Notes: generated from the sequence alone by a model not told the origin. A stretch of DNA of 64,000 bases from an uncultured Gammaproteobacteria bacterium (GCA_964367355.1 CAYIWY010000001.1:35307-99306), one strand, 5' to 3'. Positions 2,926 to 56,517 are shown, counted from the first letter of the stretch. A program made the numbers and translations.

Positions 2926-3351
2926 ATGGGTAAAGGAGTTGGGATATTGGAAGTACAGTGCGCAGCTGACATTTTGGAAACTAGAGTCAGACTTAATGGC
3001 AGTATAATCTGCGAGGCAAAAAACTCATATCTGGAAACGAAACCATTAAGAACCTGGGCACGGATGGCCTCCGACCAACATTTCCCAGAATTGGGAAATG
3101 CACTATCTGAATACTATGGATCGATATTCAGATATGTGAAAGGCGCACGTAACAAGCTTTTCACTGGGTCGCTAACTCGCAAGGAAGCGCTTTTCGGCGA
3201 GTATGGGCCTTATGGAGAAAATCATGAAGCTTTGGTTACTTTCAACCGAATGATAGATAGTTTGGTGGTGGTAACCTACCAAGATCTCTCTGCGGAAGAT
3301 TTTGACTACGTGAAAAAGATTTTACAACAAATTGGATTGAGAGAAATTTAA
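2926..3351 (+). CDS. hypothetical protein
   Basis: 141-aa ORF with host-like GC. No recognised motifs. Confidence 0.45.
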   Translation: MGKGVGILEVQCAADILETRVRLNGSIICEAKNSYLETKPLRTWARMASDQHFPELGNALSEYYGSIFRYVKGARNKLFTGSLTRKEALFGEYGPYGENHEALVTFNRMIDSLVVVTYQDLSAEDFDYVKKILQQIGLREI

Positions 3352-3400
3352 GCTCGAATTTTAGGCAGACGTTGATCTTTTTGGTCCGTCTGCTTTCTTT

Positions 3401-4291
3401 TTATAAAAATCGAGAGGGCAGCGAAATGGCCTTGGCAACCGAAGAATAATTTTTTACAAACGAGCCAACCAGAATTTTTTCTTCACCCCGAAAGCCGCGT
3501 TTAAAATGACTAAAGCCTTGCCATTTTTTGGTTTCCGGTATTCTTGGGTCAACTATTCCTTCTAGATCAAGTTCTTTTAGGTTCAGTGCTTTTGAATTAA
3601 CGATTGCTTCCCAGACCAATAAGTAAGGCGCAAAAAATTCTCGGTAATTACTTAGAGAGGCAGCGTGATAATAATAAGCAGTTTTATCGTGATGCAAGAT
3701 TAAACAGCCGGCAATATCGGTTTTATTCCACTGGGCGATCAGTATAAAAGCCCGACCTTCATTAGAAAATATTTCCCAAAGCAAACGTAAATCTTTTTCC
3801 GGAAACCAAAACTTTTGGCGTTTTGCAGTTTGCTGATAAAGTTTCACAAACCGGTTTAAGTCGTTGCTGTGGACGACCCGCACGCCGCGGCGTTGTGAAG
3901 CCCGGACACTATAGCGCGTGTCTTTTTCCATATTATTTAAAATTTCATCTTCACTTTGGCGCAAATTAATAACCATAGTTTTGGTTGGGTGAAGTGACCA
4001 GCGTTCAGACTGGAATTTATTTTTTTCCAACTCCGAAAGAATTTCTTTTTCAGACAAAAGATGATCCGGTTCAATCTTGGCGGAAAAAACCTTGCGATCT
4101 TTTGAGAGATCGTTGAGCTTATCAAAGGCAAATGGGAGCCTTATTCGAGGAGCTTTAATCAGCGTGCCAATCAGTGGCAGTTTGTGTAAGTAAATATACT
4201 GGTTTTTTGTGTTTTGGTTTAGTTTGACAATTTCCCAGCCTAACTCTTCCATAAAACTTGCCCAGTAAGGTGATTGGCGCAAATCAGTCAT
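3401..4291 (-). CDS. FemAB-family-like (GNAT-fold) peptidoglycan bridge or aminoacyl transferase, tentative
   Basis: 296 aa. C-terminal FKRGFRG-type motif and overall composition are reminiscent of FemAB/GNAT acyltransferases. Weak. Confidence 0.35.
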   Translation of the reverse strand: MTDLRQSPYWASFMEELGWEIVKLNQNTKNQYIYLHKLPLIGTLIKAPRIRLPFAFDKLNDLSKDRKVFSAKIEPDHLLSEKEILSELEKNKFQSERWSLHPTKTMVINLRQSEDEILNNMEKDTRYSVRASQRRGVRVVHSNDLNRFVKLYQQTAKRQKFWFPEKDLRLLWEIFSNEGRAFILIAQWNKTDIAGCLILHHDKTAYYYHAASLSNYREFFAPYLLVWEAIVNSKALNLKELDLEGIVDPRIPETKKWQGFSHFKRGFRGEEKILVGSFVKNYSSVAKAISLPSRFL

Positions 4292-4342: not shown

Positions 4343-5128
4343 TTAATTTGAAAGAAGGAAAGCTTCAGTGAAACGAGAAGTCCACCAACCAGTAGCGATG
4401 TTATCAAAACCAAGATCGATCTTGTTACCCTTAATGCTACCTCCAGTATCGCCGGCAATAGCGATCCCGTAGCCAGGTACATAAACCTTACTGCGAAGTG
4501 GGATTACTTTCGGATCCACGGCAATAACACCATAACCAGCCTTCATACCAATAGAAGTCGTATCGTTGCAACCACGACAGTTGGCATCGTAGGAGGTTGC
4601 CCAAACAGTGAGGGAAGTTTTATATTTAATTATTCCGTAAGGTGTCTCAAGAGTTTTTTCTTCAGGGTCAAGTCCAACTGCAATAATTTCCTCAATCGGT
4701 TTTTTCTCAGCAATTAAAATATTTTCCCTGGAAAACTCCTGATTTTGGTGGAAAACAATTTTTGTTTGAACAGTTTTTTCACCGCTCGTGCCTTGCTGAA
4801 TTATCTTTGTTTCACCAGGCTTCAACAGTGGATCCACGGTCGTCTTTTTTTGGAATTTAAGTTTCTGGGTGTGGGTGGTTATTTTTTCGCTAAAGAGAGA
4901 CTCTGTGTTTGGTTGCTTTGGGGAAGAAAGATTAACAATTTGAGCTCCCGGGATAAAGGCAAAGCTTAATTTTGGGAAAATTGTTTCATAAAACACGAAA
5001 ACCAAAAGCAAAAAAATAATACCTGCGGATTTGTAGGAGAGTCGGGACAGGAAGAGTGAACCAAACCCTCCAACTGTAGAGTCAACATAAGCTAGCCTGC
5101 CTGCCACAAACTGCTTAACAATATTCAT
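4343..5128 (-). CDS. cell-wall associated protein with G5-like and 3D (MltA-like) domains
   Basis: N-terminal TM segment. A middle G5-like segment reads KPGETKIIQQGTSGEKTV. The C-terminal 3D domain reads WATSYDANCRGCNDTTSIGMKAGYGVIAVDPKVIPLRSKVYVPGYGIAIAGDTGGSIKGNKIDL. Confidence 0.55.
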   Translation of the reverse strand: MNIVKQFVAGRLAYVDSTVGGFGSLFLSRLSYKSAGIIFLLLVFVFYETIFPKLSFAFIPGAQIVNLSSPKQPNTESLFSEKITTHTQKLKFQKKTTVDPLLKPGETKIIQQGTSGEKTVQTKIVFHQNQEFSRENILIAEKKPIEEIIAVGLDPEEKTLETPYGIIKYKTSLTVWATSYDANCRGCNDTTSIGMKAGYGVIAVDPKVIPLRSKVYVPGYGIAIAGDTGGSIKGNKIDLGFDNIATGWWTSRFTEAFLLSN

Positions 5129-5181
5129 CTAATAAGAAAGTTTAGTGAAATTTTTAAGAAAAGTCAAAAGATAATCTTGGC

Positions 5182-7026
5182 TTAATAACGAATGGAAATT
5201 AATAATTTTTCCGGGATATCAAGGACAAAACGGGACAGGACTCCTTCGGTACGGGTACCAAAGTAGAGTCGGCTTTGGGTATAAGTCATATAAAGTTGCT
5301 TCTCGGCGCGGGTAATACCGACATAACACAACCTGCGCTCCTCTTCGACACCAGAGGTATCGGTGAGAGATTGGCTATGGGGAAATAGACCCTCTTCCAT
5401 ACCAATCATAAAAACAATTGGAAATTCTAGCCCCTTGGCGGAATGTAAGGTCATCAAGGTAATGGCATCTTTTTTATCCTGATTTTGAACAGCTCTATTT
5501 GGCAGGTATTCTTTTTCGACCAAGGAAACGTTCTCCAAAAAATCAACAATTTCTGGGAATTCACTTGCAACTGAGCGAAGTTCTTTAACATTTTCGATTC
5601 GCCCGAGCGATTCTTCAGAGTTGTCATCAAGATAATTTAAATATTTTGTCTCAGCCAAAATTAAGTCAACAATGTCGATAGTTTTTAAACCTTCTGATTT
5701 TTGCCGAACGATTTCAAAAGAACTTTTGAAATCTAAAACCTTCTGATTGGTTTGGTCAAGTAAAGCCTTGGGACCGATGCCGCGTGGTGGTGTGTTGACG
5801 ACCCGTTTAAAACTTAAGCTATCGCTTGGATTGTTAATAAAGCGAAGATAAGCAACGATATCACGGATTTCCTTACGGTCGTAAAATCTAGTCCCCCCAA
5901 CCAAAACGTACGGCAAACCTTCACGCAACAGCGCCTCTTCCATTACCCGACTTTGGGCATTGGTTCGGTAAAGAACAGCAAAACTAGCCAAGGAAAAACC
6001 TTGGGAAGATGAAAGCAGCTTTTGGATTGTCCGGATGATAAACTCAGCTTCCTCGACTTCGTTTTTGGCCTCGTACAAAATTGTCGGAACTCCTTCATCA
6101 TTTTCCGTCCAAAGTTCAAGTATTGGATGAGAGCGGTTTTGATTGATAACATTTTGAGCCGCACCTAAAATATTTTTGGTTGAGCGGTAATTTTGGGAAA
6201 GGTTGATGGTTTCAACATCGGGAAAATCTTTGGAAAAATTAAGAATATTTTTATAGTCAGCTCCGCGCCAACCATAGATTGCTTGGGATGCATCGCCAAC
6301 CACACAAATGTTTTTGTGTTTAGAAGCGATTATTTTGGTTAATATATATTGGGCTTTGTTGGTATCTTGATATTCGTCAACCAAAACATATTTAAAACGG
6401 TTTTGGTATTTCTTCGCAACTTCTGGAAACTTTTCAAAAAGCACTACGACTTGCATCAAAAGATCGTCGAAATCCAAAGCGTGATTTTCCTTCAGTGATT
6501 CTTGGTAACGAAAATAAACTTTGGCAACAATTTCTTGAAAATAACCGCGGGCAAAGCCTTGATATTCGGTTGGTCCGATAAGTTCGTTTTTTGCCGAAGA
6601 AATCGAGTTTTTTATTGAATAAGGAGAAGTACTTTTCGGATCGAGATCAAGTTCTTTCAAAATTTCTTTGATCAAATCCAAACTGTCAGAGTCATCATAA
6701 ATAACAAACCTTGGACTGATTCCAAGATTTACTCCGTCGCTACGCAGAATACGAGCGCAGATTGAGTGGAAAGTTCCCATCCAAAGTGGCGTAGTTGAAA
6801 CTAACTTCTTTAAGCGCTCTTTCATTTCACCAGCAGCTTTGTTGGTAAATGTTACCGCTAGGATTTCTTCAGGGAGAGCTAATTTTTGTTCCAAAATGTA
6901 CGCAATCCGGTGAGTGATAACCCTGGTTTTTCCACTACCTGGACCAGAAAGAACCAAGAGCGGACCTTTTGTTTTCTTAACTGCTCTTTGTTGATCGACA
7001 TTTAATCCTTCTAAAAGTTTTTCCAT
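5182..7026 (-). CDS. uvrD: UvrD/PcrA-family ATP-dependent DNA helicase
   Basis: Walker A GPGSGKT, VLVDEYQD (motif II), and overall UvrD motifs. The likely start is MEKLLEGLN at 7026; the ORF-track start at 7107 adds 27 non-conserved residues. Confidence 0.85.
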   Translation of the reverse strand: MEKLLEGLNVDQQRAVKKTKGPLLVLSGPGSGKTRVITHRIAYILEQKLALPEEILAVTFTNKAAGEMKERLKKLVSTTPLWMGTFHSICARILRSDGVNLGISPRFVIYDDSDSLDLIKEILKELDLDPKSTSPYSIKNSISSAKNELIGPTEYQGFARGYFQEIVAKVYFRYQESLKENHALDFDDLLMQVVVLFEKFPEVAKKYQNRFKYVLVDEYQDTNKAQYILTKIIASKHKNICVVGDASQAIYGWRGADYKNILNFSKDFPDVETINLSQNYRSTKNILGAAQNVINQNRSHPILELWTENDEGVPTILYEAKNEVEEAEFIIRTIQKLLSSSQGFSLASFAVLYRTNAQSRVMEEALLREGLPYVLVGGTRFYDRKEIRDIVAYLRFINNPSDSLSFKRVVNTPPRGIGPKALLDQTNQKVLDFKSSFEIVRQKSEGLKTIDIVDLILAETKYLNYLDDNSEESLGRIENVKELRSVASEFPEIVDFLENVSLVEKEYLPNRAVQNQDKKDAITLMTLHSAKGLEFPIVFMIGMEEGLFPHSQSLTDTSGVEEERRLCYVGITRAEKQLYMTYTQSRLYFGTRTEGVLSRFVLDIPEKLLISIRY

Positions 7027-32917: not shown

Positions 32918-32992
32918 TGGAGCGGAAGACAGGATTCGAACCTGTGACTTGCTGTTTACGAAACAGCTGCTCTACCACTGAGCTACTTCCGC
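32918..32992 (-). tRNA. tRNA-Thr (anticodon CGU), CCA encoded
   Basis: Reverse complement GCGGAAGTAGCTCAGTGGTAGAGCAGCTGTTTCGTAAACAGCAAGTCACAGGTTCGAATCCTGTCTTCCGCTCCA folds as a cloverleaf with anticodon loop TTCGTAA. Confidence 0.85.
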
Positions 32993-32994
32993 GT

Positions 32995-33070
32995 TGGCGA
33001 CTACGGAGGGATTCGAACCCACGATCCTACGCTGTCAACGTAGTGCTTTAAACCACTGAGCTACGTAGCC
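32995..33070 (-). tRNA. tRNA-Val (anticodon GAC), CCA encoded
   Basis: Reverse complement GGCTACGTAGCTCAGTGG..CTACGTTGACAGCGTAG..GGTTCGAATCCC..CGTAGTCGCCA. The anticodon stem CTACG/CGTAG is perfect, with loop TTGACAG. Confidence 0.85.
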
Positions 33071-33100
33071 TTTACTCCGAAAATTCGGAGGAATCTCTTT

Positions 33101-33176
33101 TGGTGGGGCAGACAGGAGTCGAACCTATAACCTCTTGCACGCAGTGCAATTGCTCTCCCAATTGAGCTACCACCCC
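33101..33176 (-). tRNA. tRNA, probably Ala (anticodon UGC); loop parse ambiguous
   Basis: Reverse complement GGGGTGGTAGCTCAATTGGGAGAGCAATTGCACTGCGTGCAAGAGGTTATAGGTTCGACTCCTGTCTGCCCCACCA. Cloverleaf with T-loop TTCGACT. The anticodon loop ACTGCGT gives UGC but carries C33 and a G3-C70 pair, so the identity is uncertain. Confidence 0.65.
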
Positions 33177-47000: not shown

Positions 47001-47048
47001 AAATTTACTTGATTGAGAAACTTATTACTGATATTCTTGACCACAGAG

Positions 47049-48875
47049 ATGACTGCAAAAGAACTACGAGAAAAATATTTAAGATTCTTCGAGAGCAAAG
47101 GGCATAAAGTTATCCCTTCAGCTACTCTTGTTCCGGAACATGATCCAACGGTACTTTTTACCACCGCCGGAATGCACCCGTTGATCCCATACTTAATTGG
47201 ACAAGAACATCCTCAAGGTAAACGTTTGACCAATGTTCAAAAATGCCTGCGGACTGACGATATCGATGATGTTGGCGACAACTGGCACAATACTTTTTTT
47301 GAAATGCTGGGCAACTGGTCACTTGGTGATTTAGATTCCAAAGGGAGCGCAGGCACTGTAGGTGGCTACGGAAAAAAAGAAGCAATAATCTGGTCCTACG
47401 AATTTTTAATCAACGAGCTGCAGCTAGATCCAAATAGAATTTCCGTGACTGTTTTTGGCGGTGATCCGGAAATACCTGGTATTTTGGAAGACACTGAATC
47501 AGTCGAAATTTGGAAAGAGTTAGGCATTCCTGAGGAGCGTATATTCCGCCTTGGAAAAACAGACAATTGGTGGGGGCCAGTAGGGGAAACCGGACCTTGT
47601 GGACCGGATACTGAAATGTTCTATGACACAGGCAAAGGGGATCACGGTAAAGTTTGCCGACCCGGGGAGGCTTGTGGGAAATACACGGAAATTTGGAACG
47701 ATGTTTTCATGGAATACAACCGTACCAAAGATGGAAAATATGAGACGTCAAAACAAAAAAATGTTGATACAGGGATGGGATTAGAACGAACAATTGCCCT
47801 TTTGCAAGGTCGAGAAAATATTTACGAAACAGAGCTTTTTTCACCAGTACTGCAGCTGATTAAAGATTTAGCAACTGACTACAAAGAAACATCCGCAAGA
47901 ATAGTTGCTGACCACTTGCGATCAGCCACCTTCTTATTGTCCGATAAAATTATTCCGGCAAACGTTGAACGTGGTTATGTTCTGCGCAGATTAATCCGAC
48001 GAGCTATTCGCCACGCCCGCTTGTTGGGAATTAATGGCAGTTTTGCTGCCAAAATAGCTGAAAAATTTATTGAAATTTATAAAGATGAGTATTCTGAACT
48101 TGTCGATAATGCTGAATTAATTTTCCGGGAACTAAACATTGAAGAAGAGAAATTTCAGAAAGCTTTGGCTTCAGGTCTTCGTGAATTTGAAAAATTCGGT
48201 GAGAAATTAACCGGTAAGGATGTTTTCTATCTTTATGAATCCTTTGGTTTTCCACCAGAGTTAACCTACGAACTCGCCAGTGAAAAAGGCATAAAAGTTA
48301 ACCATGATGAGTTTGAAGTAGAACTTGTTCGGCATCAAGAAACTTCCAAAGCTGGTAGTGAGAAAAAATTTGCTGGGGGACTTGCTGATCATACGGAAAT
48401 TACCGTCCGTGGCCATACTGCTACCCATCTGCTTCACCAGGCCTTGAGAGATGTTTTAGGTGGTTCGGTCCACCAAACTGGGTCTAATATTACTCCCGAG
48501 CGAATTCGCTTTGACTTTTCTTACGGTGAAAAAATGACAGAGGAACAAATAAAAAAAGTTGAAACAATCGTAAATTCAAAAATTCAAGCAGATTTGCAGG
48601 TCAAAAAAGAACTCCTGTCCCAAGACGAAGCCGATAAAAAAGGAGCTATTGGTTTATTTAAAGAAAAATACGGCGACAAGGTGTCAATTTATGAAATCGG
48701 TCCTTCGACCCATTCGACGGACTCAGGGCAAGCAAACTCAGGACGAGGTTACTCTGTTGAATATTGTGGTGGCCCGCATGTGGAACATACCTCTGAGGTT
48801 GGAAGGTTCAAGATAATAAAAGAAGAGTCAGTTTCCGCTGGTCAAAGACGAATCAAAGCAGTTTTAAATCCCTAG
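47049..48875 (+). CDS. alaS: alanine--tRNA ligase (C-terminally truncated form)
   Basis: Class II motifs, and the editing-domain HTATHLLHQAL and CGGPHV zinc motif. The C-Ala domain is absent. The start was moved to MTAKELREKY. Confidence 0.9.
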   Translation: MTAKELREKYLRFFESKGHKVIPSATLVPEHDPTVLFTTAGMHPLIPYLIGQEHPQGKRLTNVQKCLRTDDIDDVGDNWHNTFFEMLGNWSLGDLDSKGSAGTVGGYGKKEAIIWSYEFLINELQLDPNRISVTVFGGDPEIPGILEDTESVEIWKELGIPEERIFRLGKTDNWWGPVGETGPCGPDTEMFYDTGKGDHGKVCRPGEACGKYTEIWNDVFMEYNRTKDGKYETSKQKNVDTGMGLERTIALLQGRENIYETELFSPVLQLIKDLATDYKETSARIVADHLRSATFLLSDKIIPANVERGYVLRRLIRRAIRHARLLGINGSFAAKIAEKFIEIYKDEYSELVDNAELIFRELNIEEEKFQKALASGLREFEKFGEKLTGKDVFYLYESFGFPPELTYELASEKGIKVNHDEFEVELVRHQETSKAGSEKKFAGGLADHTEITVRGHTATHLLHQALRDVLGGSVHQTGSNITPERIRFDFSYGEKMTEEQIKKVETIVNSKIQADLQVKKELLSQDEADKKGAIGLFKEKYGDKVSIYEIGPSTHSTDSGQANSGRGYSVEYCGGPHVEHTSEVGRFKIIKEESVSAGQRRIKAVLNP

Positions 48876-48928
48876 AGGACTTAGGTAAAAACAATTTAAA
48901 TCCAAATTCTTTCCCAATAGACACACAC

Positions 48929-48958
48929 TTGACAGAAACTATAGGACTGTAGTATATT
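48929..48958 (+). promoter_or_regulatory. AT-rich sigma70-like promoter TTGACA, 18 bp, TATATT, facing GC-rich island D
   Basis: Seen directly. The GC jump begins at about 48966. Confidence 0.5.
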
Positions 48959-49005
48959 GTTGCGCGCCAGCCTATAATCCATTTCGATAAAGAAAGGAAC
49001 TGCCC

Positions 49006-49788
49006 ATGGTTACTGCCACAGCCGCAAAGAACGGCGCATCTGCCGAACCTGTGACATCGCGCCGCGACACTCGCGCCAGCAAGGTTTCGGCGGTCAAGAC
49101 AGAGCAATCGTCCAAGTCCAACACGGGTTGGATGCACGTCAGGATTCACTGTGTCGGGCGCACCCCCCTGCTGATGGATCCCATGACTGATGGGACCATC
49201 GAGGAGCTGGAAACTGGGGTTCGCAAGCCGATCAACAAGCAACTGACGCGTTACCAGGTCTGCGAACCCAAAGTCATGCACAATGCTGCTGGCTTGATCG
49301 CGGTCCCCATCGACAACTTCTTCGCCTGCACTGTCGAGGCCGGCCGGAGAATCCCGTTTCAGAAGATGAGCAAGATGAGTACGGCTACCAGCACGACTTT
49401 GCCGGAGTACTTCCGCTTCATCTCGGAGGATCTGGTACTACTCGACAATAAGGGTAAGCCACTGCCGGACTGGGACGGGAAGTCGAAGAACGGCAGCTGG
49501 AGCGTCGATGTGCGCCGTGGTTGTCTCAAGGATGGCACGGCTGTGCCGATCCGGCGGCCGAAGTTCGACCACTGGGAATTCGATGTCGAGTTCGAGTATG
49601 ACATGGGAGTCATCTCGGACCAGAAGCTTCTCGATCTGATCAAGATCGCCGGCACGACCATGGGGCTGTGCAGCTTCCGGCCGAACAAGAAGGGTCGCTT
49701 TGGCACCTTTGCGATGACGCGCTGGGAAGAGATCGCTCGCCGTGAACAGGATACCGAGGTTGAGATAGTCAGGTTGAAGGCCGCGTAA
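49006..49788 (+). CDS. hypothetical protein (island D gene 1), GC-rich; possible glycine-rich loop near the C-terminus
   Basis: SD AAAGGAA. 260 aa. Low-complexity N-terminus. C-terminal GTTMGLCSFRPNKKGRFGTF is loosely reminiscent of a RAMP/Cas6 G-rich loop; this is speculative. Confidence 0.55.
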   Translation: MVTATAAKNGASAEPVTSRRDTRASKVSAVKTEQSSKSNTGWMHVRIHCVGRTPLLMDPMTDGTIEELETGVRKPINKQLTRYQVCEPKVMHNAAGLIAVPIDNFFACTVEAGRRIPFQKMSKMSTATSTTLPEYFRFISEDLVLLDNKGKPLPDWDGKSKNGSWSVDVRRGCLKDGTAVPIRRPKFDHWEFDVEFEYDMGVISDQKLLDLIKIAGTTMGLCSFRPNKKGRFGTFAMTRWEEIARREQDTEVEIVRLKAA

Positions 49789-49847
49789 CAACAAAGGGTG
49801 ACGTACAGTACGTTTCGTTAGGTTGGCACAACTGCACTGTCGTCATT

Positions 49848-49899
49848 TGCACTACAGGGTGGGGAACTAGGAGTCAACTTCTTTTTCCCCACCAAAACT
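49848..49899 (+). terminator. hairpin GGGTGGGGAA..TTCCCCACC plus T-run after gene 1; its 5' arm resembles the array-unit head
   Basis: CAGGGTGGGG is shared with unit R10. Followed by AAAACTCTTTTTTGG. Confidence 0.5.
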
Positions 49900-50042
49900 C
49901 TTTTTTGGTGGTTTGGTATCGGAATAAATTTCGTTACTAGAGCATCAAAACAAATACTTGGAGAAGATCAATCCAGAGTTGGGCCAAGCATTGTGGACAT
50001 ACCTGCCCTTTCGTCTACTGCTGCCCACTCCGCTGCGTCATG

Positions 50043-51304
50043 GGGCTGGATCCGATTATCGCAAGACGATCGGATCTGCCGACACTAACTACCTCGGCGT
50101 TGATGAGTGCGTTTCACTGACGTGAACTGCTTTGCACTTTAATGCGCTCGAGTTAAGTAGAGGGCTGGGGATCCGGAGAGAAATCAAAGGATCTCTGCCA
50201 ACCTTTTGTTTTCAAGTAGCCTGGGGCGGACTTCATAACAGTGGAGTTTCCTGGGGTCACCTGCAGGGCTGGGTTCCGAGAGGAAACAATCGGAACCTGC
50301 CACCTTGTTGACGGACTAAGCTGACGTTCAGTGTCGAACCGTTCGGTTCAGCACGCTCACGTGCGTCAGGTTTTAGTGGGGTGCAGGGCTGGGGGTTTCC
50401 TTGGGAAACTAGGGAAACCTCTGCCAACCAATGTTCGGTGCGCAGTTACCTCTCGTATTGATCGCCTTCCTGCTGTTGGCTACTCTGTCGTTTGGTGACC
50501 TGCTGTAATCTGAAGGGCTGGGTCCGTTTACAGAAATGTATCGGACTTGCCAAATTTGTGGTCTAGGGTGCGGTTTGGTTAACTCCACTAGCGTGCGGAA
50601 AACTGGCCTACACCTAACTGACGTCAGGGGCTGAGGACCCGGAGAGAAATCAAAGGGTCTTTGCCAACAAACTCAATTCGTTCCCCTGCTGTGAAGATGG
50701 CTTAACTTCAGTTAAGTTCTCCTTACTTACGTGGGGTATCGTGGAGTATGGGGCTGGGGATTTGCTCTGGAGAAATCTATTCAAGTCCCTGCCAACAACT
50801 TAAGTTGAACTTAGCTGCAGCTGACTTCTGTTCGCTGGGCTATTGTTACGTGCAGGGCTGGGTCCGTTTACAGAAATGTATCGGACCTGCCAAACCAATT
50901 TTGATGAATTGATTCTGAAAACATAAATTTCAAAACCAGCTCATCAGGGTTTTGAGAGAGTTATCAAGTGCGCTAGACCACTGTTCCCTAAAGCACCCAA
51001 GGGTTCAGCCCACTTTCGTGGTCTTCGCAATGGTACTGGGCTGGGGACCCGGAGAGAAATCAAAGGGTCTCTGCCAAAACGCTTTCAACTTAGGTACTGT
51101 ACCCCGTTCTTCGGTAAACAGTCCTGTCGCATTGTTTAGGGCTGGGGAGTTGGTTAACTTTGGTTTTCTAACTCCCTGCCAACCGAATTAGATTTTCGAG
51201 GGGTAGTGTTGTGTATGGCAGCGTCATGCTCCGTCTGCTTCAGTACACCAGGTTGCCCCATAGTTCAGGACTGCCCCCGATGTTTCGAAAGAATTATCGG
51301 GGGT
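50043..51304 (+). repeat. array I of structured repeat units with the pattern CAGGGCTGGG, variable hairpin, CTGCCAAC (11 units)
   Basis: Units: 50043-50083, 50162-50202, 50266-50304, 50386-50428, 50515-50554, 50628-50668, 50751-50796, 50855-50894, 51038-51080, 51138-51182, plus a degenerate unit at 51261-51304. Stems of 5-7 bp covary (GATCC/GGATC against GACCC/GGGTC; GTCCG/CGGAC; GGATCTG/CAGATCC; GGTTTCC/GGAAACC). Loops usually contain AGAAAT. Inter-unit segments are unique and 60-184 bp long. There is no ORF. Confidence 0.85.
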
Positions 51305-51365
51305 GTCATTTTTCAATATTTACCTAAAAAATTCTGTCCCATTTTGTAACAAGGCACTTTAACAA

Positions 51366-53213
51366 GTGACAAATAGTAAAGGAGAGGGGACAACAGTGCC
51401 TTCATCGCAACATCGTGGTAGGCCTTCTTTCGAGGAGCTTACCTCCGCCTGGCCAAGGCGGCGACTTGGACCCATGTGGTCCGAACAAGAAGAAGCCTTT
51501 GAGGTCATTGCCAAACATGGCAGTTGTACCTTGGAGGTACCGACTGGTATGGGCAAAACCGCTATCGGTTACACGACGCTCAAGGCGTTGGGCAACCGTG
51601 GTGAAGGCCCACTTTTCTACATCGTGCCGACCAAAACTTTGGTTGGACAGGTAGCTGAGATGTTTCCAGACGTCACTCCGGCCTATGGTCGGAATGAGTT
51701 TGATTGTCTCTACTACGACGAGCCGTACAAAGCGGACGAAGTCCCTTGCCTGCTATTGCAGGACTGTGTCCATCGGGTCGATCAAGAGACTGGCCGGACT
51801 GCTGGTCGAGGAGCAGAACGTTGCCCCTACTACCACGCCAAGTACCAAGCCAAACGCGATCCGAGTCGGATCGTAGTCTGCTCGATGTCGTTTTACCTTT
51901 TCACCCAGCTTTTCTCCAAGGAGTTTGAGAATCCAGCTGGTTTGGTGATCGACGAAGTTCAGCAGATGCCAGATGTGGTCCGTAATGCTCTGTCTTTTGA
52001 CATCACGGACTATCAGTTGCAACGGGCGATCAACCTACTGTCAACCACAGCTGCGGATGAAGCTGCTGGTCTCGAGATCTTTCTCGATACTATGTTGCGG
52101 ATCATTCGACTCAAGCCTTCGAAGGTGCCGGTAATGCTCGAAGATGTCGAGTTGCAGGAACTGCTGTTGGTCTTGCGAGATATTGACCGCGATGGTCTGC
52201 GTCGCAAGATCGCCGAGGGTATCCGCTCGGGCGACATTGATGTCGTCAAAGAGCGAGAAGTCCTGACCAAAGTTGAGCGACTGGTCTATGACCTGTACCG
52301 TTACGTGCGAGCGTTTGAATTTTCGCTCAGCAACGAAACACAACGGCCACTCAACTACACCTACGCAGTTTGGGACAAAGAACCAGCTGAGGGCAAAAAG
52401 GTCCACAACAAGCTGACCGTCAAGTCCTACTACGTCGCGCCGGTGATCAAGAAACTGCTGTCAGCCAATCTGACAGTGAGTTTGGGAGCGACTATCGGCG
52501 ACCCGAACGTGTTTGGTTACGAGTCAGGGATCGATCCGAGGCGAACGCCGATGTTCACTTTTGACTCGAGTTTTCCGGTCGGCAACACCCGGATCTACGT
52601 TCCGTCGGACTCCTTTAGCTTGGCGGAAAAAGAGGTCAAAAATCGTGGTAAAGCCACAATGGTCCGTCGGATGGTTCGCTCGGCCAAAACCTTCAACCAA
52701 AAAGGTGAGCGCGTGTTGTGCTTGGTCGTCTCTGACACCGAGCGGCAGCGCTTTATTCGGATGGCCACTGAAGACGATGTCAACTTCATCACTTACGGTG
52801 ATGGCGTGACCGCGCGCGAAGCTGCGGACCGCTTCCGTGCCGGAGAGGGTAAAGTCCTGCTTGGGACAGACGCCCAGTACGGCCAGGGTGTTGACCTGCC
52901 AGACGGTATCTGTCGGGTGATCTTCTACCTGCGACCCGGTTATCCGCGACCAGATGATCCTCAGACCCAGTTTGAGGAAAAGCGTTTTCGCTCACAGAAG
53001 TGGGCAATCTGGCAGTGGCGACTGATCATGAAGGCGATGCAGGTGCGCGGTCGTAACATCCGTGGTCCGGAAGACAGGGGAGTGACGATTTTCTTCGACA
53101 GCCGTTTCCGGCGTTTCCTTTTCGGAGGGATGCCCAAGTGGCTCCAGCCGTCATATCGTGGAGATCTGACACTGCAAGAGTGCATTGAGGACGCGCTCAA
53201 GGTGTTGAAGTAG
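51366..53213 (+). CDS. Rad3/XPD/DinG-family SF2 helicase with an Fe-S domain (island D gene 2)
   Basis: Walker A TGMGKT. Four Cys lie between motifs I and II (CLYY, PCLLL, DCVHR, ERCPYY). Motif II is VIDEVQQM (a DEAH-like DEVQ). The C-terminal LLGTDAQYGQGVDLPDG and QVRGRNIRGPEDRGVTIFFDSR match DinG motifs V/VI. An alternative start GTG 51396 has SD AAGGAGAGGGG. Confidence 0.8.
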   Translation: MTNSKGEGTTVPSSQHRGRPSFEELTSAWPRRRLGPMWSEQEEAFEVIAKHGSCTLEVPTGMGKTAIGYTTLKALGNRGEGPLFYIVPTKTLVGQVAEMFPDVTPAYGRNEFDCLYYDEPYKADEVPCLLLQDCVHRVDQETGRTAGRGAERCPYYHAKYQAKRDPSRIVVCSMSFYLFTQLFSKEFENPAGLVIDEVQQMPDVVRNALSFDITDYQLQRAINLLSTTAADEAAGLEIFLDTMLRIIRLKPSKVPVMLEDVELQELLLVLRDIDRDGLRRKIAEGIRSGDIDVVKEREVLTKVERLVYDLYRYVRAFEFSLSNETQRPLNYTYAVWDKEPAEGKKVHNKLTVKSYYVAPVIKKLLSANLTVSLGATIGDPNVFGYESGIDPRRTPMFTFDSSFPVGNTRIYVPSDSFSLAEKEVKNRGKATMVRRMVRSAKTFNQKGERVLCLVVSDTERQRFIRMATEDDVNFITYGDGVTAREAADRFRAGEGKVLLGTDAQYGQGVDLPDGICRVIFYLRPGYPRPDDPQTQFEEKRFRSQKWAIWQWRLIMKAMQVRGRNIRGPEDRGVTIFFDSRFRRFLFGGMPKWLQPSYRGDLTLQECIEDALKVLK

Positions 53214-53287
53214 AGAGTCAACCTGTGGCCTAGTCAAGTTAACCGAGCTGTTCTGTGGTGACTTGATGTCGGCTATTCAATTGCACA

Positions 53288-53882
53288 GGGTGGGGATCTG
53301 CTCTGGAGAAATCTATCCAGATCCCTGCCATTTTCTTTTTTCAACGAGTGCAGTTAGGCAGACAATGTCATTGTCCTGTTTACCTAACTGGTGTTCGCTG
53401 CAGGGCTGCCTCGATAAAACCGAAAGGATTTATCGGGGCGCCATTCTTTTGATAGTTTAATTTTGGAAATATTTTCAAAACTAGCCTATCAAAGAAAAAC
53501 GATATGGTATTCTTTTGTCGACGCGGCGGTCTTCAGTTCGCTAGCCCATGCTGCCGTTCGGTAGAGTCGGGAACGCTAGAGAGTACTGAACCGCAGTATG
53601 GGGCTGGGAACCTGCTCTGAGTAATCATCAGGTTCCTGCCAACGTTCACTTTCGTGCGGTTCAACAGCGTAGGGACTCGCCAACTGTGGTAAAGTTCTCT
53701 ATTGTAGTGTTAACCGCGCTGGTCTAAAGGGCTGGGGATCTGCTCTGGAGAAATCTATCCAGATCCCTGCCAATTTCACAAACTGACTCAAGCAGGGCCA
53801 TGTCCACAGGAGTTAGGTGGCCTGCGCTTTTGTCTAGTTTAGGGCTGGGTCCGATTTCAGAAATGTTTTCGGACCTGCCAAC
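53288..53882 (+). repeat. array II of the same structured repeat units downstream of the helicase (5 units)
   Basis: Units: 53288-53331 (ends CTGCCAT), a degenerate unit at 53403-53444 (similar to 51261-51304), 53601-53643, 53729-53774, 53842-53882. Units 50751-50796, 53288-53331 and 53729-53774 form one family. Units 50515-50554, 50855-50894 and 53842-53882 form another. Confidence 0.85.
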
Positions 53883-54067
53883 TCAATTTCGGCGGGATTC
53901 AAGTTTTTATTAACTTGGTCCCGCTTTTTCTTTTACCAAATTTTGTTTCGAGATTGAAAATGGTATTATAATAAGAGACGATCTGCCAAGATACCGCGTT
54001 AAATGTAATTTAGATAAATTAAGAACTATTTTATGCGCGCGATATTTCGTCATCTAAAACTGCCAAA

Positions 54068-55030
54068 ATGAAATTTATTCCAAATATTATTCCCAAAAGA
54101 GATAAAAAACATTCCCGCTTTGTCGTTTTGGATATTGGTTTGGGAAGAGTCAATATTGCCATTTTTGATACCACGCCCGAAGGTCCGAAGTTTGTTGGAG
54201 TTGGTAGACGCAGCTTTGGAGCAGCCGATACGATTTTAGACGCTACCTTGGAAGCCACTGACGCTCTGGGAGCAATCGTTGACGAGCTGCCTTCAGCTGC
54301 AATCGTTGGGGTAAGTGGCGGAAAACTCGATACAATTTCCACAATCGCAAAATACACCCGCGAAAAACCAAAACAAGCAATCGATAAAAATGAAGCCTCG
54401 TCAGTCCTAGAAAAAGTTTCTGCAGAAGAAAAAGAAAATCTCAAAATATTTTTTTCAACAATAACTAGTGCAAACATCGACGGAGCAAAACTTACAAACC
54501 CAATCGGGGTTAAGGGGGAAAAAGCAGAGGTAAATTGTTTTATTGCCTTTAAACCAGAAGAAGAGCTGAAGATTTATGACCAAATTATCGATGAGCTAGA
54601 ACTGAAACCAGAAAAAATTATCCCAACTTCATTTGCTGTAACCCAAATGGTAAGTAAAGATTTGACCGGAAATACTCTGCTACTTAGAATTGGCCAAACA
54701 AAAACAGAAGCAGCTCAAGTACACAGAGGAAATTTAATTAAAGTAACAAACATTGACCTTGGGGCGGAACAGCTTGATTATTACCCATTTGCTTTGGAAG
54801 CATTGTTGGAAAAACAAAACCCCGAGGAAAGAACTAGCCTTATTTGGCTTTATGCTGACAGCGACGAGGTTAATTTAGTTGATATTGAAGAAAAACTAGC
54901 AAGTGTGGATTGGAAAAAGAAATTTGATTTTAAAGAAGAAATTAAGATAGAAAGAGCTTCAGGAGAAAATAATTTTGGTCAATCGGATATGGGTTTACTT
55001 GCCCTTTCTTTACAGGAGATTTTTAACTGA
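54068..55030 (+). CDS. actin-like ATPase, FtsA/PilM family
   Basis: The N-terminal phosphate-1-like motif VVLDIGLGRVNIAIFD fits the ASKHA fold. Confidence 0.4.
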   Translation: MKFIPNIIPKRDKKHSRFVVLDIGLGRVNIAIFDTTPEGPKFVGVGRRSFGAADTILDATLEATDALGAIVDELPSAAIVGVSGGKLDTISTIAKYTREKPKQAIDKNEASSVLEKVSAEEKENLKIFFSTITSANIDGAKLTNPIGVKGEKAEVNCFIAFKPEEELKIYDQIIDELELKPEKIIPTSFAVTQMVSKDLTGNTLLLRIGQTKTEAAQVHRGNLIKVTNIDLGAEQLDYYPFALEALLEKQNPEERTSLIWLYADSDEVNLVDIEEKLASVDWKKKFDFKEEIKIERASGENNFGQSDMGLLALSLQEIFN

Positions 55031-56517
55031 TGCGTCAACTCGAGATCGATTCACAAACCAATCTTTCACATATTCTTTCAGAACTTAAAACCACTGATGA
55101 AAATGGGCTGGAATTAAATGTTGTTCCAAATGAAACTACTGTACTGGACAATCCAATTCATAGATTAATTATTGAAAAAGCCGCTAAAGATTTTAACAAA
55201 GAAGTTGTTTTTCCAGCTTCTCCAATTGAAGACGCTCCGGAGGTGGAAAGTGACGATTTGGGTTTTGTCGAAGGTGAGGATATCGTTGCTAAAACCCCGA
55301 TAGAAGAAGTCCACAAAATGATTCAGCCGGCAGCAGTTATTTCTAAAGAAGTACTTGCCAAAAAGAAAAAGTTTACTCTACCGAAATTCCTCAAAAATAA
55401 ATTAGTCTTACTTGGTATCGGGGTATTTGTCTTAATAATTGCGTTCGGTCTTGGAATTTATTTTTTACCCTTCGCCAAAATAGAATTAGTACTAAGCAGT
55501 GAAACAAAAGACTCACAAATAACTTTGACTGGAGATACGACGCAAAAAGAAGTCGATATTAAAAATAAAGTCGTTCCCATGAAAGCAATTGAAGTTTCTA
55601 AAGAAGGCGATGATGAGCAAACAACAACCGGCAAGAAAACAGTTGGCACTGTAGCTAAAGGCAGAGTTACTATCACAAACAGAAGTGTAGAAAAAACTTT
55701 TATTGCCGGAACAATCTTAACCCCAGTTGCTACTAGTAGTGCTACCTTTAAGTTGGATAATGACGTGACTATTCCGGCTTCGCAATGGCCTCTAGGTTCG
55801 GACGGGACAATTGGTGTTAATGTTACCGCAACTGCAGCAGGAACAGCAGGAAATTTGGCTGCAAACACCTCATTCAAAGTTGGAAGTGCCTCGACCATAG
55901 AAATTTCTGCGAAAAACGACCTAGCTTTATCTGGAGGATCTTCCAAACAGGTAACGGTTGCTTCTGCTGATGACCGGGAAGTTTTAAAGAAGCAGATCGT
56001 CGATAAGCTAACAGCCGATGCCAAGAAAGATACGGAGAAAAAAACTAAGGATTCAATTGTGCCCGACGAGGGCTCGATTGTCGAAGTCGTCAAAGAGGAA
56101 TATGAGCCAAAAGATATAAATGCCGAAGCAGAAAAACTCAAAGCAACAATTTCGATAAAAGTTAAAACCTTTGTCTTTGATAGAAATGATTTAACAAAAG
56201 TCTTTGTGGAATCGTTGGAAAAATCGGCGAAAGGCTTTAGTGTTGATAAGGAAGTTTCCAAAATAACCCTGCAGCAAACTGAAAAAACTTCCGAAACAGT
56301 TGCAAAATTTATCGGTAAAATTAAAGCAGTTTTGCATCCTGAAATTAATAAAAAAGAGATAACTCGGCAAACAACCGGCAAGAGTTTGAACGACGTTGAT
56401 TCGTATTTAGACTCGTCCGGTAATATAAGCAGTTACAAAGTAACTACCTTTCCGGGATTTTTTAAGTTTATGCCGTTTAACCAAAGTAAGATTGAAGTAA
56501 GGCTGAAAAACGACTAG
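55030..56517 (+). CDS. hypothetical bitopic membrane protein with a Thr/Val-rich extracellular domain
   Basis: TM around residues 120-145 (LVLLGIGVFVLIIAFGLGIYFLPF). Translationally coupled to the upstream gene (ATGA overlap). Confidence 0.4.
   Translation: MRQLEIDSQTNLSHILSELKTTDENGLELNVVPNETTVLDNPIHRLIIEKAAKDFNKEVVFPASPIEDAPEVESDDLGFVEGEDIVAKTPIEEVHKMIQPAAVISKEVLAKKKKFTLPKFLKNKLVLLGIGVFVLIIAFGLGIYFLPFAKIELVLSSETKDSQITLTGDTTQKEVDIKNKVVPMKAIEVSKEGDDEQTTTGKKTVGTVAKGRVTITNRSVEKTFIAGTILTPVATSSATFKLDNDVTIPASQWPLGSDGTIGVNVTATAAGTAGNLAANTSFKVGSASTIEISAKNDLALSGGSSKQVTVASADDREVLKKQIVDKLTADAKKDTEKKTKDSIVPDEGSIVEVVKEEYEPKDINAEAEKLKATISIKVKTFVFDRNDLTKVFVESLEKSAKGFSVDKEVSKITLQQTEKTSETVAKFIGKIKAVLHPEINKKEITRQTTGKSLNDVDSYLDSSGNISSYKVTTFPGFFKFMPFNQSKIEVRLKND

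What the first reader, a model, noticed from the sequence alone, without database searches (positions are those of the whole stretch)
51261..53444. The helicase gene is bracketed by two divergent units of a distinct subtype, each followed by AT-rich promoter-like DNA (cassette-like layout)
The unit at 51261-51304 (GGACTGCCCCCGAT..ATCGGGGGTGTCAT) and the unit at 53403-53444 (GGGCTGCCTCGATAAA..TTTATCGGGGCGCCAT) are about 70% identical to each other. They differ from the main unit consensus and flank the helicase gene as direct repeats. Each is followed by low-GC sequence (51305-51365 and 53445-53520) resembling host promoters. A third AT-rich stretch (50895-50960) interrupts array I. This layout looks like either sub-arrays each with its own leader, or a gene cassette captured between repeat units.
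Basis: seen in the sequence. Interest (0 to 1): 0.55.

Follow-up and report, generated by a model that had tools for sequence, protein, structure and literature searches.

The report
Terminator-type guide-RNA tails flanking VIPR helicase
The two odd repeat units around the helicase gene are the structured 3' ends of guide RNAs in a recently described VIPR (RNA-guided, CRISPR-like) system, and they most likely mark where one transcript stops and the next begins, so the helicase is not a captured gene cassette.

Summary
Unit A lies at 51268-51309, not 51261-51304; unit B (53403-53444) is exact. They are 69% identical and are each other's nearest relatives. The DNA after each is the lowest-GC DNA of the island.

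The locus (49006-53935) is a VIPR system (bioRxiv 10.64898/2026.04.26.720920). It has a Vipr RAMP protein, a DinG-like helicase as accessory gene, and 17 vrRNAs. The "spacers" are 5-nt repeat tracts phased to the hairpin "units", which are the vrRNA 3' tails. A and B keep the tail architecture and follow intact repeat tracts, so they are not decayed units.

They carry stronger, G·U-poor stems and are followed by T-tracts. This GGGCTGCC subtype was found only at transcription-unit boundaries (5 of 5 copies), and its stems differ between homologous loci while staying paired. Other relatives have an ordinary tail plus T-tract, or a canonical terminator, about 90 nt upstream of the helicase.

Best reading: A and B are terminal vrRNA tails that double as intrinsic terminators, followed by the helicase 5' region and by a repeated array leader. 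The sub-array reading is supported in essence. The cassette reading is not: vipr and helicase co-occur in nearly all loci examined. Termination and promoter activity are inferred, not shown.

The parts
48929..48958 (+). Promoter of the vipr gene (TTGACA-18-TATATT)
   Evidence: It matches 11 of 12 consensus positions. It is conserved in L001, L003, L005 and L006. It lies in host-like low-GC DNA just after alaS.
49006..49788 (+). vipr gene: a 260-aa RAMP protein of the Vipr family
   Evidence: It has no Pfam, PADLOC or NCBIfam hit. The family profile hits PDB 36pp 'SUSP1 Vipr protein' at E=5.7e-8 across the G-loop. The AF2 model (pLDDT 77) matches Csm3/Cas7 at Foldseek E~1e-6. The family has 3270 representatives at E<=1e-3.
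49789..49911 (+). vrRNA0 in the vipr 3' region: tail U0 (49857-49893, GGGTGGGG type without the bulge), then a T-tract and an overlapping alternative hairpin (49889-49911)
   Evidence: The upstream pentamers are phased to the tail. The hairpin folds at -23 kcal/mol and the 3' flank is AAAACTCTTTTTTGG. The scan flags 49889-49911 as terminator-like.
49894..49975 (+). Leader element, copy 1 (33% GC)
   Evidence: It aligns with leader copies 2 and 3 and with L001, L005 and L006.
49976..50891 (+). Array I, first part: vrRNA1-8. Tails at 50043-50080, 50162-50199, 50266-50301, 50386-50425, 50515-50551, 50628-50665, 50751-50793 and 50855-50891
   Evidence: Pattern hits are and folds. The 5-nt periodicity is phased to each tail.
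50892..50960 (+). It follows an ordinary tail (U8)
   Evidence: Alignment A7. It has a weak TTGATG-17-TAAATT match.
50961..51180 (+). Array I, second part: vrRNA9-10. Tails at 51038-51075 and 51139-51180
51181..51267 (+). Variable (pentamer-repeat) region of vrRNA-A
   Evidence: 12 of the last 13 pentamers before the tail start with S-Y in phase (counted from the listing).
51268..51309 (+). Unit A: a CC-subtype vrRNA tail and putative intrinsic terminator. The T-tract runs to about 51322
   Evidence: It folds at -25.0 kcal/mol, z=-5.85, with the same base, bulge and stem layout as ordinary tails. The 3' flank is ATTTTTCAATATTT, tail score -3.46 against -1.5 to -2.3 for internal tails. Orthologous CC-type tails with different stems occur in L001 and L006.
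51310..51395 (+). Helicase 5' region: AT-rich DNA, the conserved block CTGTCCCATTTTGTAACAAGGCAC, and the RBS AAAGGAG at 51378-51384
   Evidence: It is conserved in W, L001, L004, L005 and L006, and partly in L007 and L009. 51310-51365 is 27% GC. No consensus promoter was found.
51396..53213 (+). vap gene: a DinG/XPD-like helicase. The real start is GTG 51396; the longest ORF starts at 51366
   Evidence: Pfam hits are Helicase_C_2, DEAD and DEAD_2. The PADLOC typeIV_DinG model scores E=3e-44 over nearly the full profile. The start is set by the HMM envelope and by alignment with homologues.
53214..53344 (+). vrRNA11 in the helicase 3' region: tail U11 (53288-53329, GGGTGGGG type) plus the T-tract ATTTTCTTTTTTCAA
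   Evidence: Pentamers are phased from just after the stop codon. The fold is -23.5 kcal/mol. The tail score of -3.84 is the strongest in the window.
53345..53402 (+). Variable (pentamer-repeat) region of vrRNA-B
   Evidence: 9 of the last 11 pentamers are in phase (counted from the listing).
53403..53444 (+). Unit B: a CC-subtype vrRNA tail and putative second terminator of the helicase unit
   Evidence: It folds at -24.8 kcal/mol, z=-4.81. The 3' flank is ATTCTTTTGATAGTT, tail score -3.16. The ortholog L006 7401-7438 has a different stem and precedes the same leader.
53445..53510 (+). Leader element, copy 3 (26% GC)
   Evidence: Alignment A7, with L001 and L006 copies at the same position. 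It has a weak TTGATA-15-TATTTT match.
53511..53879 (+). Array II: vrRNA12-14. Tails at 53601-53640, 53729-53771 and 53842-53879
   Evidence: The variable region of vrRNA13 and the last tail are conserved in L001, L004 and L006.
53892..53934 (+). Final intrinsic terminator of the island (GCGGGA...TCCCGC followed by TTTTTCTTTT)
   Evidence: Read from the sequence. It is conserved in L001, L004, L005 and L007.

Best explanation
Window 49006-53935 is a VIPR (Viral Interference Programmable Repeat) island in a Saccharimonadia-like (CPR) chromosome. It consists of a Vipr RAMP protein, a DinG-like helicase as the accessory (vap) gene, and 17 vrRNAs.

Each vrRNA is a tract of about 9-16 pentanucleotide repeats. 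The first position is G or C, the second is a pyrimidine, and three variable bases follow. The tract ends in a conserved hairpin 'tail' of the form GGGCUG-stem-loop-stem-UGCC.

Units A and B are tails of complete vrRNAs. They belong to a subtype in which the first stem pairs are flipped (GG:CC becomes CC:GG), the stem is G·U-poor and stronger, and the 3' flank is A plus a T-tract instead of AAC or AAA.

They sit at transcription-unit boundaries. A ends array I and is followed by the helicase 5' region. B, together with the bulge-less tail U11 before it, ends the helicase unit and is followed by a repeated ~50-nt leader that starts array II.

The most likely mechanism is that these tails double as intrinsic terminators. 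This gives the vrRNA arrays and the helicase separate transcription units.

Shown here: VIPR membership by sequence and fold, repeat phasing, hairpin stability, T-tracts, position, and conservation across loci.
Inferred: actual termination, promoter activity of the AT-rich stretches, and binding of Vipr to CC-type tails.
For: VIPR identity:
- The family profile hits PDB 36pp 'SUSP1 Vipr protein' at E=5.7e-8 over the G-loop.
- The model matches Csm3/Cas7.
- The 80 nt upstream of all 17 hairpins show a 5-nt period phased to the hairpin. Phase 0 is G or C in 90% of cases; phase 1 is T in 73% and Y in 90%.
- This fits the vrRNA description (repeat tract plus conserved 3' tail; YNNNG-type variants; helicase vaps) in 10.64898/2026.04.26.720920.

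A and B are intact tails:
- They have the same fold layout as ordinary tails, at -25.0 and -24.8 kcal/mol, z -5.9 and -4.8.
- The preceding pentamers are in phase.

Terminator character:
- T-tail scores are A -3.46, U11 -3.84 and B -3.16, against -1.5 to -2.3 for the internal tails of the window.
- The four T-tract tails average -23.0 kcal/mol against -19.4 for 13 internal tails (Mann-Whitney p=0.01).

Position:
- All 5 CC-type tails found (W A, W B, L001 A, L006 A, L006 B) sit at boundaries, against 9 of 49 GG-type tails (Fisher p=6e-4; the positions are orthologous, so not independent).
- The orthologous A tails have different distal stems, each fully paired.

Generality:
- In L004, L007 and L009 the pre-helicase tail is the ordinary type but still has a T-tract (-3.2 to -3.5).
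- In 25 of 39 loci across Patescibacteria a strong hairpin plus T-tract lies 20-260 nt upstream of the helicase, many of them 64-120 nt upstream. The background inside the helicase CDS is 0.014 per 240 nt. Unit A lies 88 nt upstream.
- L011 has unrelated canonical terminators at the same positions.
- The leader is repeated and conserved.
Against: - The generic terminator scan did not flag A, B or U11. Their loops exceed 8 nt and their stems carry a bulge, and 3-5 nt separate the long stem from the T-run.
- B's T-tract is interrupted (TTCTTTT). Its L006 ortholog has a weak one (ATTCCTTGG, -2.61) and the L001 equivalent scores -2.53.
- U11, only 70 nt upstream of B, already has the strongest T-tract. 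vrRNA-B would therefore be made only by read-through, or U11 is leaky.
- L005 has an ordinary tail with a weak T-tract (-2.31) before the helicase.
- Leader copy 2 follows an ordinary, non-terminator tail (U8), so a boundary does not require the subtype.
- No canonical promoter was found in any AT-rich stretch.
- There are no transcript data for this organism, and CPR termination signals are uncharacterised.
- The VIPR papers do not mention terminators.
Confidence: 0.62

Rival explanations
1. A and B are a functionally distinct class of vrRNA tail rather than mainly terminators. For example, they could be Vipr-responsive attenuators that couple guide-RNA load to helicase expression. Alternatively they could be tails read by a different partner, such as the helicase.
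For: - The subtype shares a loop motif (TTTCGAAAGA) and a flipped stem base in W A, W B, L006 A and L006 B. The L001 B-equivalent keeps the loop.
- The subtype is tied to two specific junctions: before the helicase 5' region and before leader 3.
- After U0 there are mutually exclusive hairpins (49857-49893 against 49889-49911), which look like an attenuator.
- The function of helicase vaps in VIPR is unknown.
Against: - L004, L005, L007 and L009 do without the subtype at the same junction.
- Distant loci use ordinary terminators there.
- Nothing in the sequence shows protein-dependent switching at A or B.
- The sample is small, with only two orthologous positions.
Confidence: 0.15
2. A and B are decayed ordinary units: degenerate tails of dead vrRNAs that drifted next to AT-rich DNA.
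For: - They are the most divergent members of the family in the window (54-57% mean identity to ordinary units).
- Unit A has lost the invariant GGGC/GCC ends (GGAC...GTC).
- The L001 equivalent of B is clearly degenerate at its base (GAGCTA...TGCTAA).
Against: - They fold better than 11 of the 13 internal tails.
- The change at A's base is compensatory: GGC:GCC becomes GGA:(G)UC, keeping an A-U pair.
- The same subtype recurs at the same positions in L001 and L006, with different but fully paired stems.
- The preceding repeat tracts are intact and in phase.
Confidence: 0.07
3. The helicase is a mobile gene cassette inserted between two repeat units, which served as recombination sites in the manner of an integron attC pair.
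For: - Direct repeats of one subtype lie on both sides of the gene.
- vrRNA modules are visibly reshuffled between loci: the same variable region is joined to different tails.
- In L001 the vipr and array-I segment is inverted.
Against: - The helicase accompanies vipr in nearly all loci examined. 38 of 42 helicase-bearing loci had a vipr hit, and 4 of 4 vipr-anchored loci with enough contig have the helicase.
- The order vipr-vrRNAs-helicase-vrRNAs holds across Patescibacteria.
- The island has no integrase or recombinase.
- The helicase has the island's GC content and its own conserved 5' region.
- B is not adjacent to the gene.
- L004, L005, L007 and L009 have the helicase without the subtype units.
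Confidence: 0.03

Closest known systems
VIPR systems (Viral Interference Programmable Repeat; Vipr RAMP plus vrRNA plus vap; bioRxiv 10.64898/2026.04.26.720920 and 10.64898/2026.04.26.720927)
   Same: - A single small RAMP protein, homologous to SUSP1 Vipr by sequence profile and Cas7-like by fold.
- Roughly 100-130-nt RNAs made of pentanucleotide repeats with conserved and variable positions, capped by a conserved structured 3' tail.
- RNAs placed on both sides of the protein genes.
- A minimal two-gene locus whose accessory gene acts on DNA. The papers state that helicase vaps exist.
   Different: - The repeat consensus here is S-Y-N-N-N (a YNNNG-like variant), not GGY/NN.
- The tail is a simple bulged hairpin, not the SUSP1 pseudoknot.
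- The arrays are long (17 vrRNAs).
- The host is a CPR bacterial chromosome at a fixed site, not a phage.
- The papers' text says nothing about terminators, leaders or tail subtypes, and the helicase-type systems are uncharacterised. I could not tell from the text which of types III-V this is.
Type IV-A CRISPR-Cas (Csf complex plus DinG/Csf4)
   Same: - The best defence-HMM match of the helicase is the type IV-associated DinG model (E=3e-44).
- A Cas7-like RAMP sits next to it.
- Action is probably RNA-guided DNA binding without a nuclease.
   Different: - There is no Csf1 (Cas8-like), Csf3 (Cas5) or Csf5/Cas6, and no cas1-cas2.
- There is no CRISPR array. The 'repeats' vary and covary, the 'spacers' are 60-90 nt with 5-nt periodicity, and they are shared between strains.
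Intrinsic (Rho-independent) terminators that double as the 3' structure of a small RNA
   Same: - A G+C-rich hairpin is followed by a U-tract at the end of a transcription unit.
- The next unit's AT-rich upstream region follows directly.
   Different: - The hairpin here is a member of a repeated family that elsewhere in the array is not followed by a U-tract.
- It has a bulge and a 10-14-nt apical region, so simple scanners miss it.
CRISPR leader and terminal-repeat organisation
   Same: - An AT-rich leader precedes an array.
- The last unit of an array is a sequence variant of the repeat.
   Different: - The leader occurs three times within one locus.
- The variant units keep or improve their structure rather than degenerate.
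- There is no sign of spacer acquisition.

Membership tests
VIPR system | Vipr protein: a minimal single-RRM RAMP with a G-loop, homologous to characterised Vipr | tested here: met
   The profile of 10 family members hits PDB 36pp 'SUSP1 Vipr protein' at E=5.7e-8 and aligns GlgsFRp..FGtF with GVGDWRP..FGRF. The AF2 model (pLDDT 77, pTM 0.70) matches Csm3/Cas7 subunits at E~1e-6. The sequence match covers only about 60 C-terminal residues.
VIPR system | vrRNA variable region: at least 4 tandem pentanucleotide repeats with conserved positions (YNNGG, or the related NNNGG, YNNNG or NNNNG) | tested here: met
   The 80 nt before each of 17 tails show a phased 5-nt period, with S at 90% and Y at 90% (T 73%) at two adjacent positions and three variable positions. 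This is the YNNNG-like variant, with C often replacing G.
VIPR system | A conserved, structured 3' tail capping each repeat tract | tested here: met
   All 17 tails fold as a 3-bp base, a 1-nt bulge (absent in U0 and U11) and a long stem, at -16 to -26 kcal/mol. The ends are conserved and the stems vary while staying paired.
VIPR system | A minimal locus: vipr plus one accessory gene (vap) acting on DNA, with no cas1/cas2 and no CRISPR array | tested here: met
   The island has only two ORFs with support, vipr and a DinG-like helicase. The neighbours are housekeeping genes (alaS, ftsK, rodZ-like, yceG). The pairing recurs in related loci.
VIPR system | vrRNAs are expressed, bind Vipr, and guide gapped recognition of double-stranded DNA | not testable with these tools
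   There are no transcript or binding data. The skip rule for YNNNG-type repeats is not given in the papers' text.
Type IV-A CRISPR-Cas | DinG (Csf4) helicase | tested here: met
   PADLOC typeIV_DinG (CAS-IV-A associated) scores E=3.3e-44, covering profile positions 28-568 of 575. Generic DinG models in NCBIfam reach only 1e-12.
Type IV-A CRISPR-Cas | A multi-subunit Csf effector (Csf1/Cas8-like, Csf2/Cas7, Csf3/Cas5, Csf5/Cas6) | tested here: not met
   There is a single RAMP gene. No other ORF in the island has support, and PADLOC gives no Csf hit for the RAMP.
Type IV-A CRISPR-Cas | A CRISPR array: near-identical repeats separated by unique spacers of uniform length | tested here: not met
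   The units are 52-98% identical to each other. The periods range from 101 to 183 nt. The intervals have 5-nt periodicity and are shared between loci.
Integron-like gene cassette | A site-specific recombinase (IntI) and attC-type sites, with variable presence of the cassette | tested here: not met
   The island has no recombinase. The helicase is present in every related locus with enough sequence. Loci found through the helicase cannot show its absence, so the reverse test rests on four vipr-anchored loci.
Intrinsic terminator | A stable G+C-rich hairpin followed immediately by a U-rich tract, at the 3' end of a transcription unit | tested here: inconclusive
   The hairpins fold at -25.0 and -24.8 kcal/mol. 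The flanks are ATTTTTCAATATTT and ATTCTTTTGATAGTT, with tail scores of -3.46 and -3.16. They lie at gene and array boundaries, and equivalent sites occur in 25 of 39 loci. But the generic scan did not flag them, and there is no 3'-end mapping.

The most novel reading that the evidence does not exclude
The terminator-type tails are regulatory switches, not passive punctuation. Vipr would assemble on a nascent vrRNA up to its tail and change whether the tail hairpin terminates transcription. Read-through into the helicase gene (at A), and out of it into array II (at U11 and B), would then depend on how much free Vipr and guide RNA the cell holds. This would be a built-in feedback loop linking guide load to the accessory helicase in a CRISPR-like system.
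Probability: 0.1. Interest if true: 0.55.

Novelty: new member of a known kind. Interest (0 to 1): 0.3.

Why it matters
VIPR systems were described only in 2026, and their helicase-associated types are uncharacterised.

This locus gives a clean anatomical map of one. It has 17 guide RNAs in three leader-headed sub-arrays. A guide RNA is embedded in the 3' region of each protein gene. Tail variants appear to act as terminators that insulate the helicase gene from the arrays.

That map tells an experimenter where to cut the locus for heterologous expression, and which tails to avoid or use when building synthetic vrRNA arrays. It also corrects a tempting misreading of the locus as a CRISPR array or a gene cassette. 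The specific finding itself, two variant units next to AT-rich DNA, is ordinary operon punctuation.

Tried and rejected
- **Type IV CRISPR-Cas.** The DinG HMM hit suggested it. I rejected it for lack of Csf subunits and of a true CRISPR array.
- **Integron or attC cassettes, REP elements, TIGR-Tas.** I considered these from the anatomy and dropped them. There is no recombinase, no RAYT transposase (the enzyme associated with REP elements) and no Nop-domain protein, and the period and structure differ.
- **Rfam.** The gathering-threshold scan of the window gave only three tRNAs.
- **The search for related loci with the single helicase protein.** It found nothing in either collection. The alignment-based repeat worked for genome contigs.
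- **Metagenome pattern scan for CC-type tails** (GGGCTGCC-N18-36-GGGYGCCAT). Of its 120 stretches, only 22 passed my filter (at least two ordinary tails nearby, or a fold of -20 kcal/mol or better). All 22 passed on fold energy alone, in GC-rich sequence, with at most one ordinary tail nearby and no T-tract. I take them to be chance matches.
- **Covariance model of the tails.** I abandoned it because the MAFFT alignments put the stems out of register and I could not supply a hand alignment.
- **First terminator count**. The thresholds were too lax (2.5 sites per 240 nt inside the CDS), so I repeated it with strict thresholds.
- **Promoter search.** Strict and relaxed scans gave no convincing sigma-70 site in the AT-rich stretches. 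The conserved ACYAG and TTGRTR blocks of the leader have no fixed spacing.
- **Supplement of the VIPR paper.** The text held has no mention of Patescibacteria or DinG, so the VIPR type number could not be assigned.

Full report
**1. What is in the sequence**

Window 49006-53935 is a 52% GC island in a 39-40% GC genome. It lies between alaS (47013-48875) and a conserved 320-aa gene. It holds two supported ORFs:
- a 260-aa protein (49006-49788) with no Pfam, PADLOC or NCBIfam match;
- a DinG/XPD-like helicase.

Around them are 17 hairpin units of the form GGGCTG-stem-loop-stem-TGCC. There are 11 exact pattern matches against 0.9 expected; folds are.

Unit A is at 51268-51309, 5-7 nt to the right of the stated coordinates.

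A and B are 69% identical, and each is the other's best match. They average 54% and 57% identity to the ordinary units, which average 69% among themselves.

The DNA after A (27% GC) and after B (26% GC) is the lowest-GC DNA in the island.

One correction to the 'bracket': an ordinary-type unit (U11, 53288-53329) lies between the helicase stop codon and B.

**2. What the locus is**

The 260-aa protein belongs to a large unannotated family, with 3270 representatives at E<=1e-3.
- A profile of ten members hits the solved 'SUSP1 Vipr protein' (PDB 36pp) at E=5.7e-8 across the glycine-rich loop.
- An AlphaFold model (pLDDT 77) matches Csm3/Cas7 RAMP subunits.

Vipr is the protein of the VIPR systems described in two 2026 preprints. 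In those systems a single RAMP polymerises on a roughly 100-nt vrRNA. The vrRNA is made of pentanucleotide repeats (GGY/NN or related consensus) and is capped by a conserved structured 3' tail. One accessory gene (vap) lies next to it, and the papers note that some vaps are predicted helicases.

I tested the RNA criterion directly. The 80 nt upstream of all 17 hairpins, cut into pentamers anchored at the hairpin, show G or C at the first position in 90% of cases. The second position is a pyrimidine in 90% (T in 73%), and the other three positions are variable.

The helicase's best defence-HMM match is the type IV CRISPR-associated DinG model (E=3e-44). No other type IV component and no CRISPR array is present.

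**3. The layout is conserved**

- The same order, vipr-[vrRNAs]-helicase-[vrRNAs], occurs at the same alaS site in related Saccharimonadales loci (L001, L004-L008).
- It also occurs at other sites across Patescibacteria (L009-L011 and 35 genome loci).
- vipr was detected next to the helicase in 38 of the 42 loci with a helicase hit.
- Two further vipr-anchored look-ups also found the helicase directly downstream.
- Phased pentamer tracts are enriched on the helicase strand on both sides: 241 against 84 antisense upstream, and 160 against 40 downstream. 40 of 42 loci have them upstream and 37 of 42 downstream.

A helicase flanked by vrRNAs is therefore the normal architecture of this VIPR type. 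It is not a sign of capture.

**4. What A and B are**

Both follow intact, in-phase repeat tracts. Both fold with the same layout as ordinary tails, a 3-bp base, a one-base bulge and a long stem. They are more stable: -25.0 and -24.8 kcal/mol, with z-scores of -5.9 and -4.8.

Compared with ordinary tails:
- the first stem pairs are flipped (CUG-GG...CC-UGCC becomes CUG-CC...GG-YGCC);
- the stem lacks most G·U pairs;
- the loop carries CGAAAG;
- the 3' flank is A plus a T-tract instead of AAC or AAA.

A simple T-tail score separates two classes in the window. A scores -3.46, U11 -3.84 and B -3.16, while the internal tails score -1.5 to -2.3. U0, after vipr, also has a T-run. The four T-tract tails are more stable than the 13 internal ones (mean -23.0 against -19.4 kcal/mol, p=0.01).

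**5. Related loci**

The CC-type tail recurs before the helicase in L001 and L006. Its distal stems there are different but each fully paired: CCCCCGAT/ATCGGGGG, CCCGCTTTTTTC/GAAGAGCGGG and CCCCGACA/TGTCGGGG. Each is followed by ATTTTT... and the conserved helicase 5' block CTGTCC(C/A)ATTTTGTAACAAGGCAC.

A B-type tail with a different stem precedes the same leader in L006. The L001 equivalent keeps the loop but is degenerate at its base.

All five CC-type tails are at boundaries, against 9 of 49 ordinary tails (p=6e-4). These are two orthologous positions, not five independent events.

The subtype is not obligatory:
- L004, L007 and L009 have an ordinary tail plus a T-tract before the helicase (-3.2 to -3.5).
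- L005 has an ordinary tail with a weak T-tract.

In more distant loci the same position holds either a tail plus T-tract or an unrelated canonical terminator, often followed by TTGACA. With strict thresholds, 25 of 39 loci have such a site 20-260 nt upstream of the helicase, many of them 64-120 nt upstream. The background inside the helicase CDS is 0.014 per 240 nt. Unit A lies 88 nt upstream.

**6. The AT-rich stretches**

Three of them (49894-49975, 50892-50960, 53445-53510) are copies of one ~50-nt leader element. It is also present at the corresponding places in L001, L005 and L006. The stretch after A is different. It is the helicase 5' region and ends in the RBS AAAGGAG and the start codon GTG at 51396.

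None contains a convincing sigma-70 consensus. Promoter function is therefore inferred from position and conservation only.

**7. Mechanism, and how sure**

I conclude that A and B are terminal vrRNA tails that double as intrinsic terminators. They divide the island into these units:
- vipr plus vrRNA0;
- leader 1 plus vrRNA1-8;
- leader 2 plus vrRNA9-10 and vrRNA-A;
- helicase plus vrRNA11 (and vrRNA-B by read-through);
- leader 3 plus vrRNA12-14 and a final canonical terminator (53892-53934).

VIPR membership is well supported (about 0.9). That A and B are functional tails is likely (about 0.85). That they terminate transcription is plausible but unproven (about 0.6).

Counter-evidence:
- the generic scan missed them;
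- B's T-tract is interrupted and is weak in its orthologs;
- U11 already carries a stronger T-tract 70 nt upstream of B;
- leader 2 follows a non-terminator tail.

**8.

'Sub-arrays with their own leaders' is essentially right. 'Captured cassette' and 'decayed units' are not supported.

The system is a new member of a kind described in 2026. The terminator-type tails and repeated leaders are details not mentioned in the preprints' text, but they are ordinary operon punctuation. Interest is modest.

Noticed in passing
L001 1-6997 (compare window 48850-55500): In this homologous contig the vipr gene and array I are inverted relative to the helicase. About 130 nt at the contig end is an inverted copy of the junction sequence. 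This is either a real inversion between inverted vrRNA modules or a fold-back assembly artefact.
   Followed up: partly
window 50810-50853; L005 ~5820-5867; L006 ~5085-5135: The same vrRNA variable region occurs in three loci but is joined to different tails and sits at different array positions. Other variable regions (for example window 53641-53728) are also shared. Guide modules are reshuffled by recombination rather than acquired like CRISPR spacers.
   Followed up: partly
window 49006-53935 compared with L001, L004 and L006: The island evolves independently of its host backbone. Between the window and L001 the flanking 320-aa gene is 96% identical at the nucleotide level, but vipr is 62% and the helicase 67%. 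Between the window and L006 the flanking gene is 57% identical but the helicase 67%. The island always sits between alaS and the 320-aa gene.
   Followed up: partly
window 49789-49911 and 53214-53344: Each protein gene is followed directly by a vrRNA whose tail lacks the bulged C (GGGTGGGG instead of GGGCTGGGG). This gives a continuous helix followed by a T-tract, so guide RNAs appear to be embedded in the 3' untranslated regions of the vipr and helicase mRNAs.
   Followed up: partly
window 49857-49911: The 3' strand of tail U0 (CCCCACC) overlaps a second hairpin, CCACCAAAA-CTC-TTTTTTGGTGG, which the scan flags as a terminator. The two hairpins are mutually exclusive, as in an attenuator.
   Followed up: no
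window 53443-53451 and 53509-53517: A 9-nt direct repeat (ATTCTTTTG) flanks leader copy 3. In L001 an extra vrRNA tail sits just before the second copy, which suggests a deletion or insertion of a module here.
   Followed up: no
window 51366-51398: The longest-ORF start of the helicase (GTG 51366) is probably wrong. Homologues and the HMM envelope place the start at GTG 51396, preceded by the RBS AAAGGAG at 51378-51384.
   Followed up: yes
L035 ~3440-3530 and L037 ~3330-3420: Hammerhead-ribozyme-like cores (CUGAUGAG/CUGACGAG...CGAAA/UGAAAC) lie just upstream of the helicase in two distant loci. This agrees with the ribozyme-interspersed vrRNA arrays mentioned in the VIPR preprint. There are none in this window.
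   Followed up: no
window 32921-33176: Three tRNA genes lie in tandem on the minus strand (Rfam). They are unrelated to the finding.
   Followed up: no
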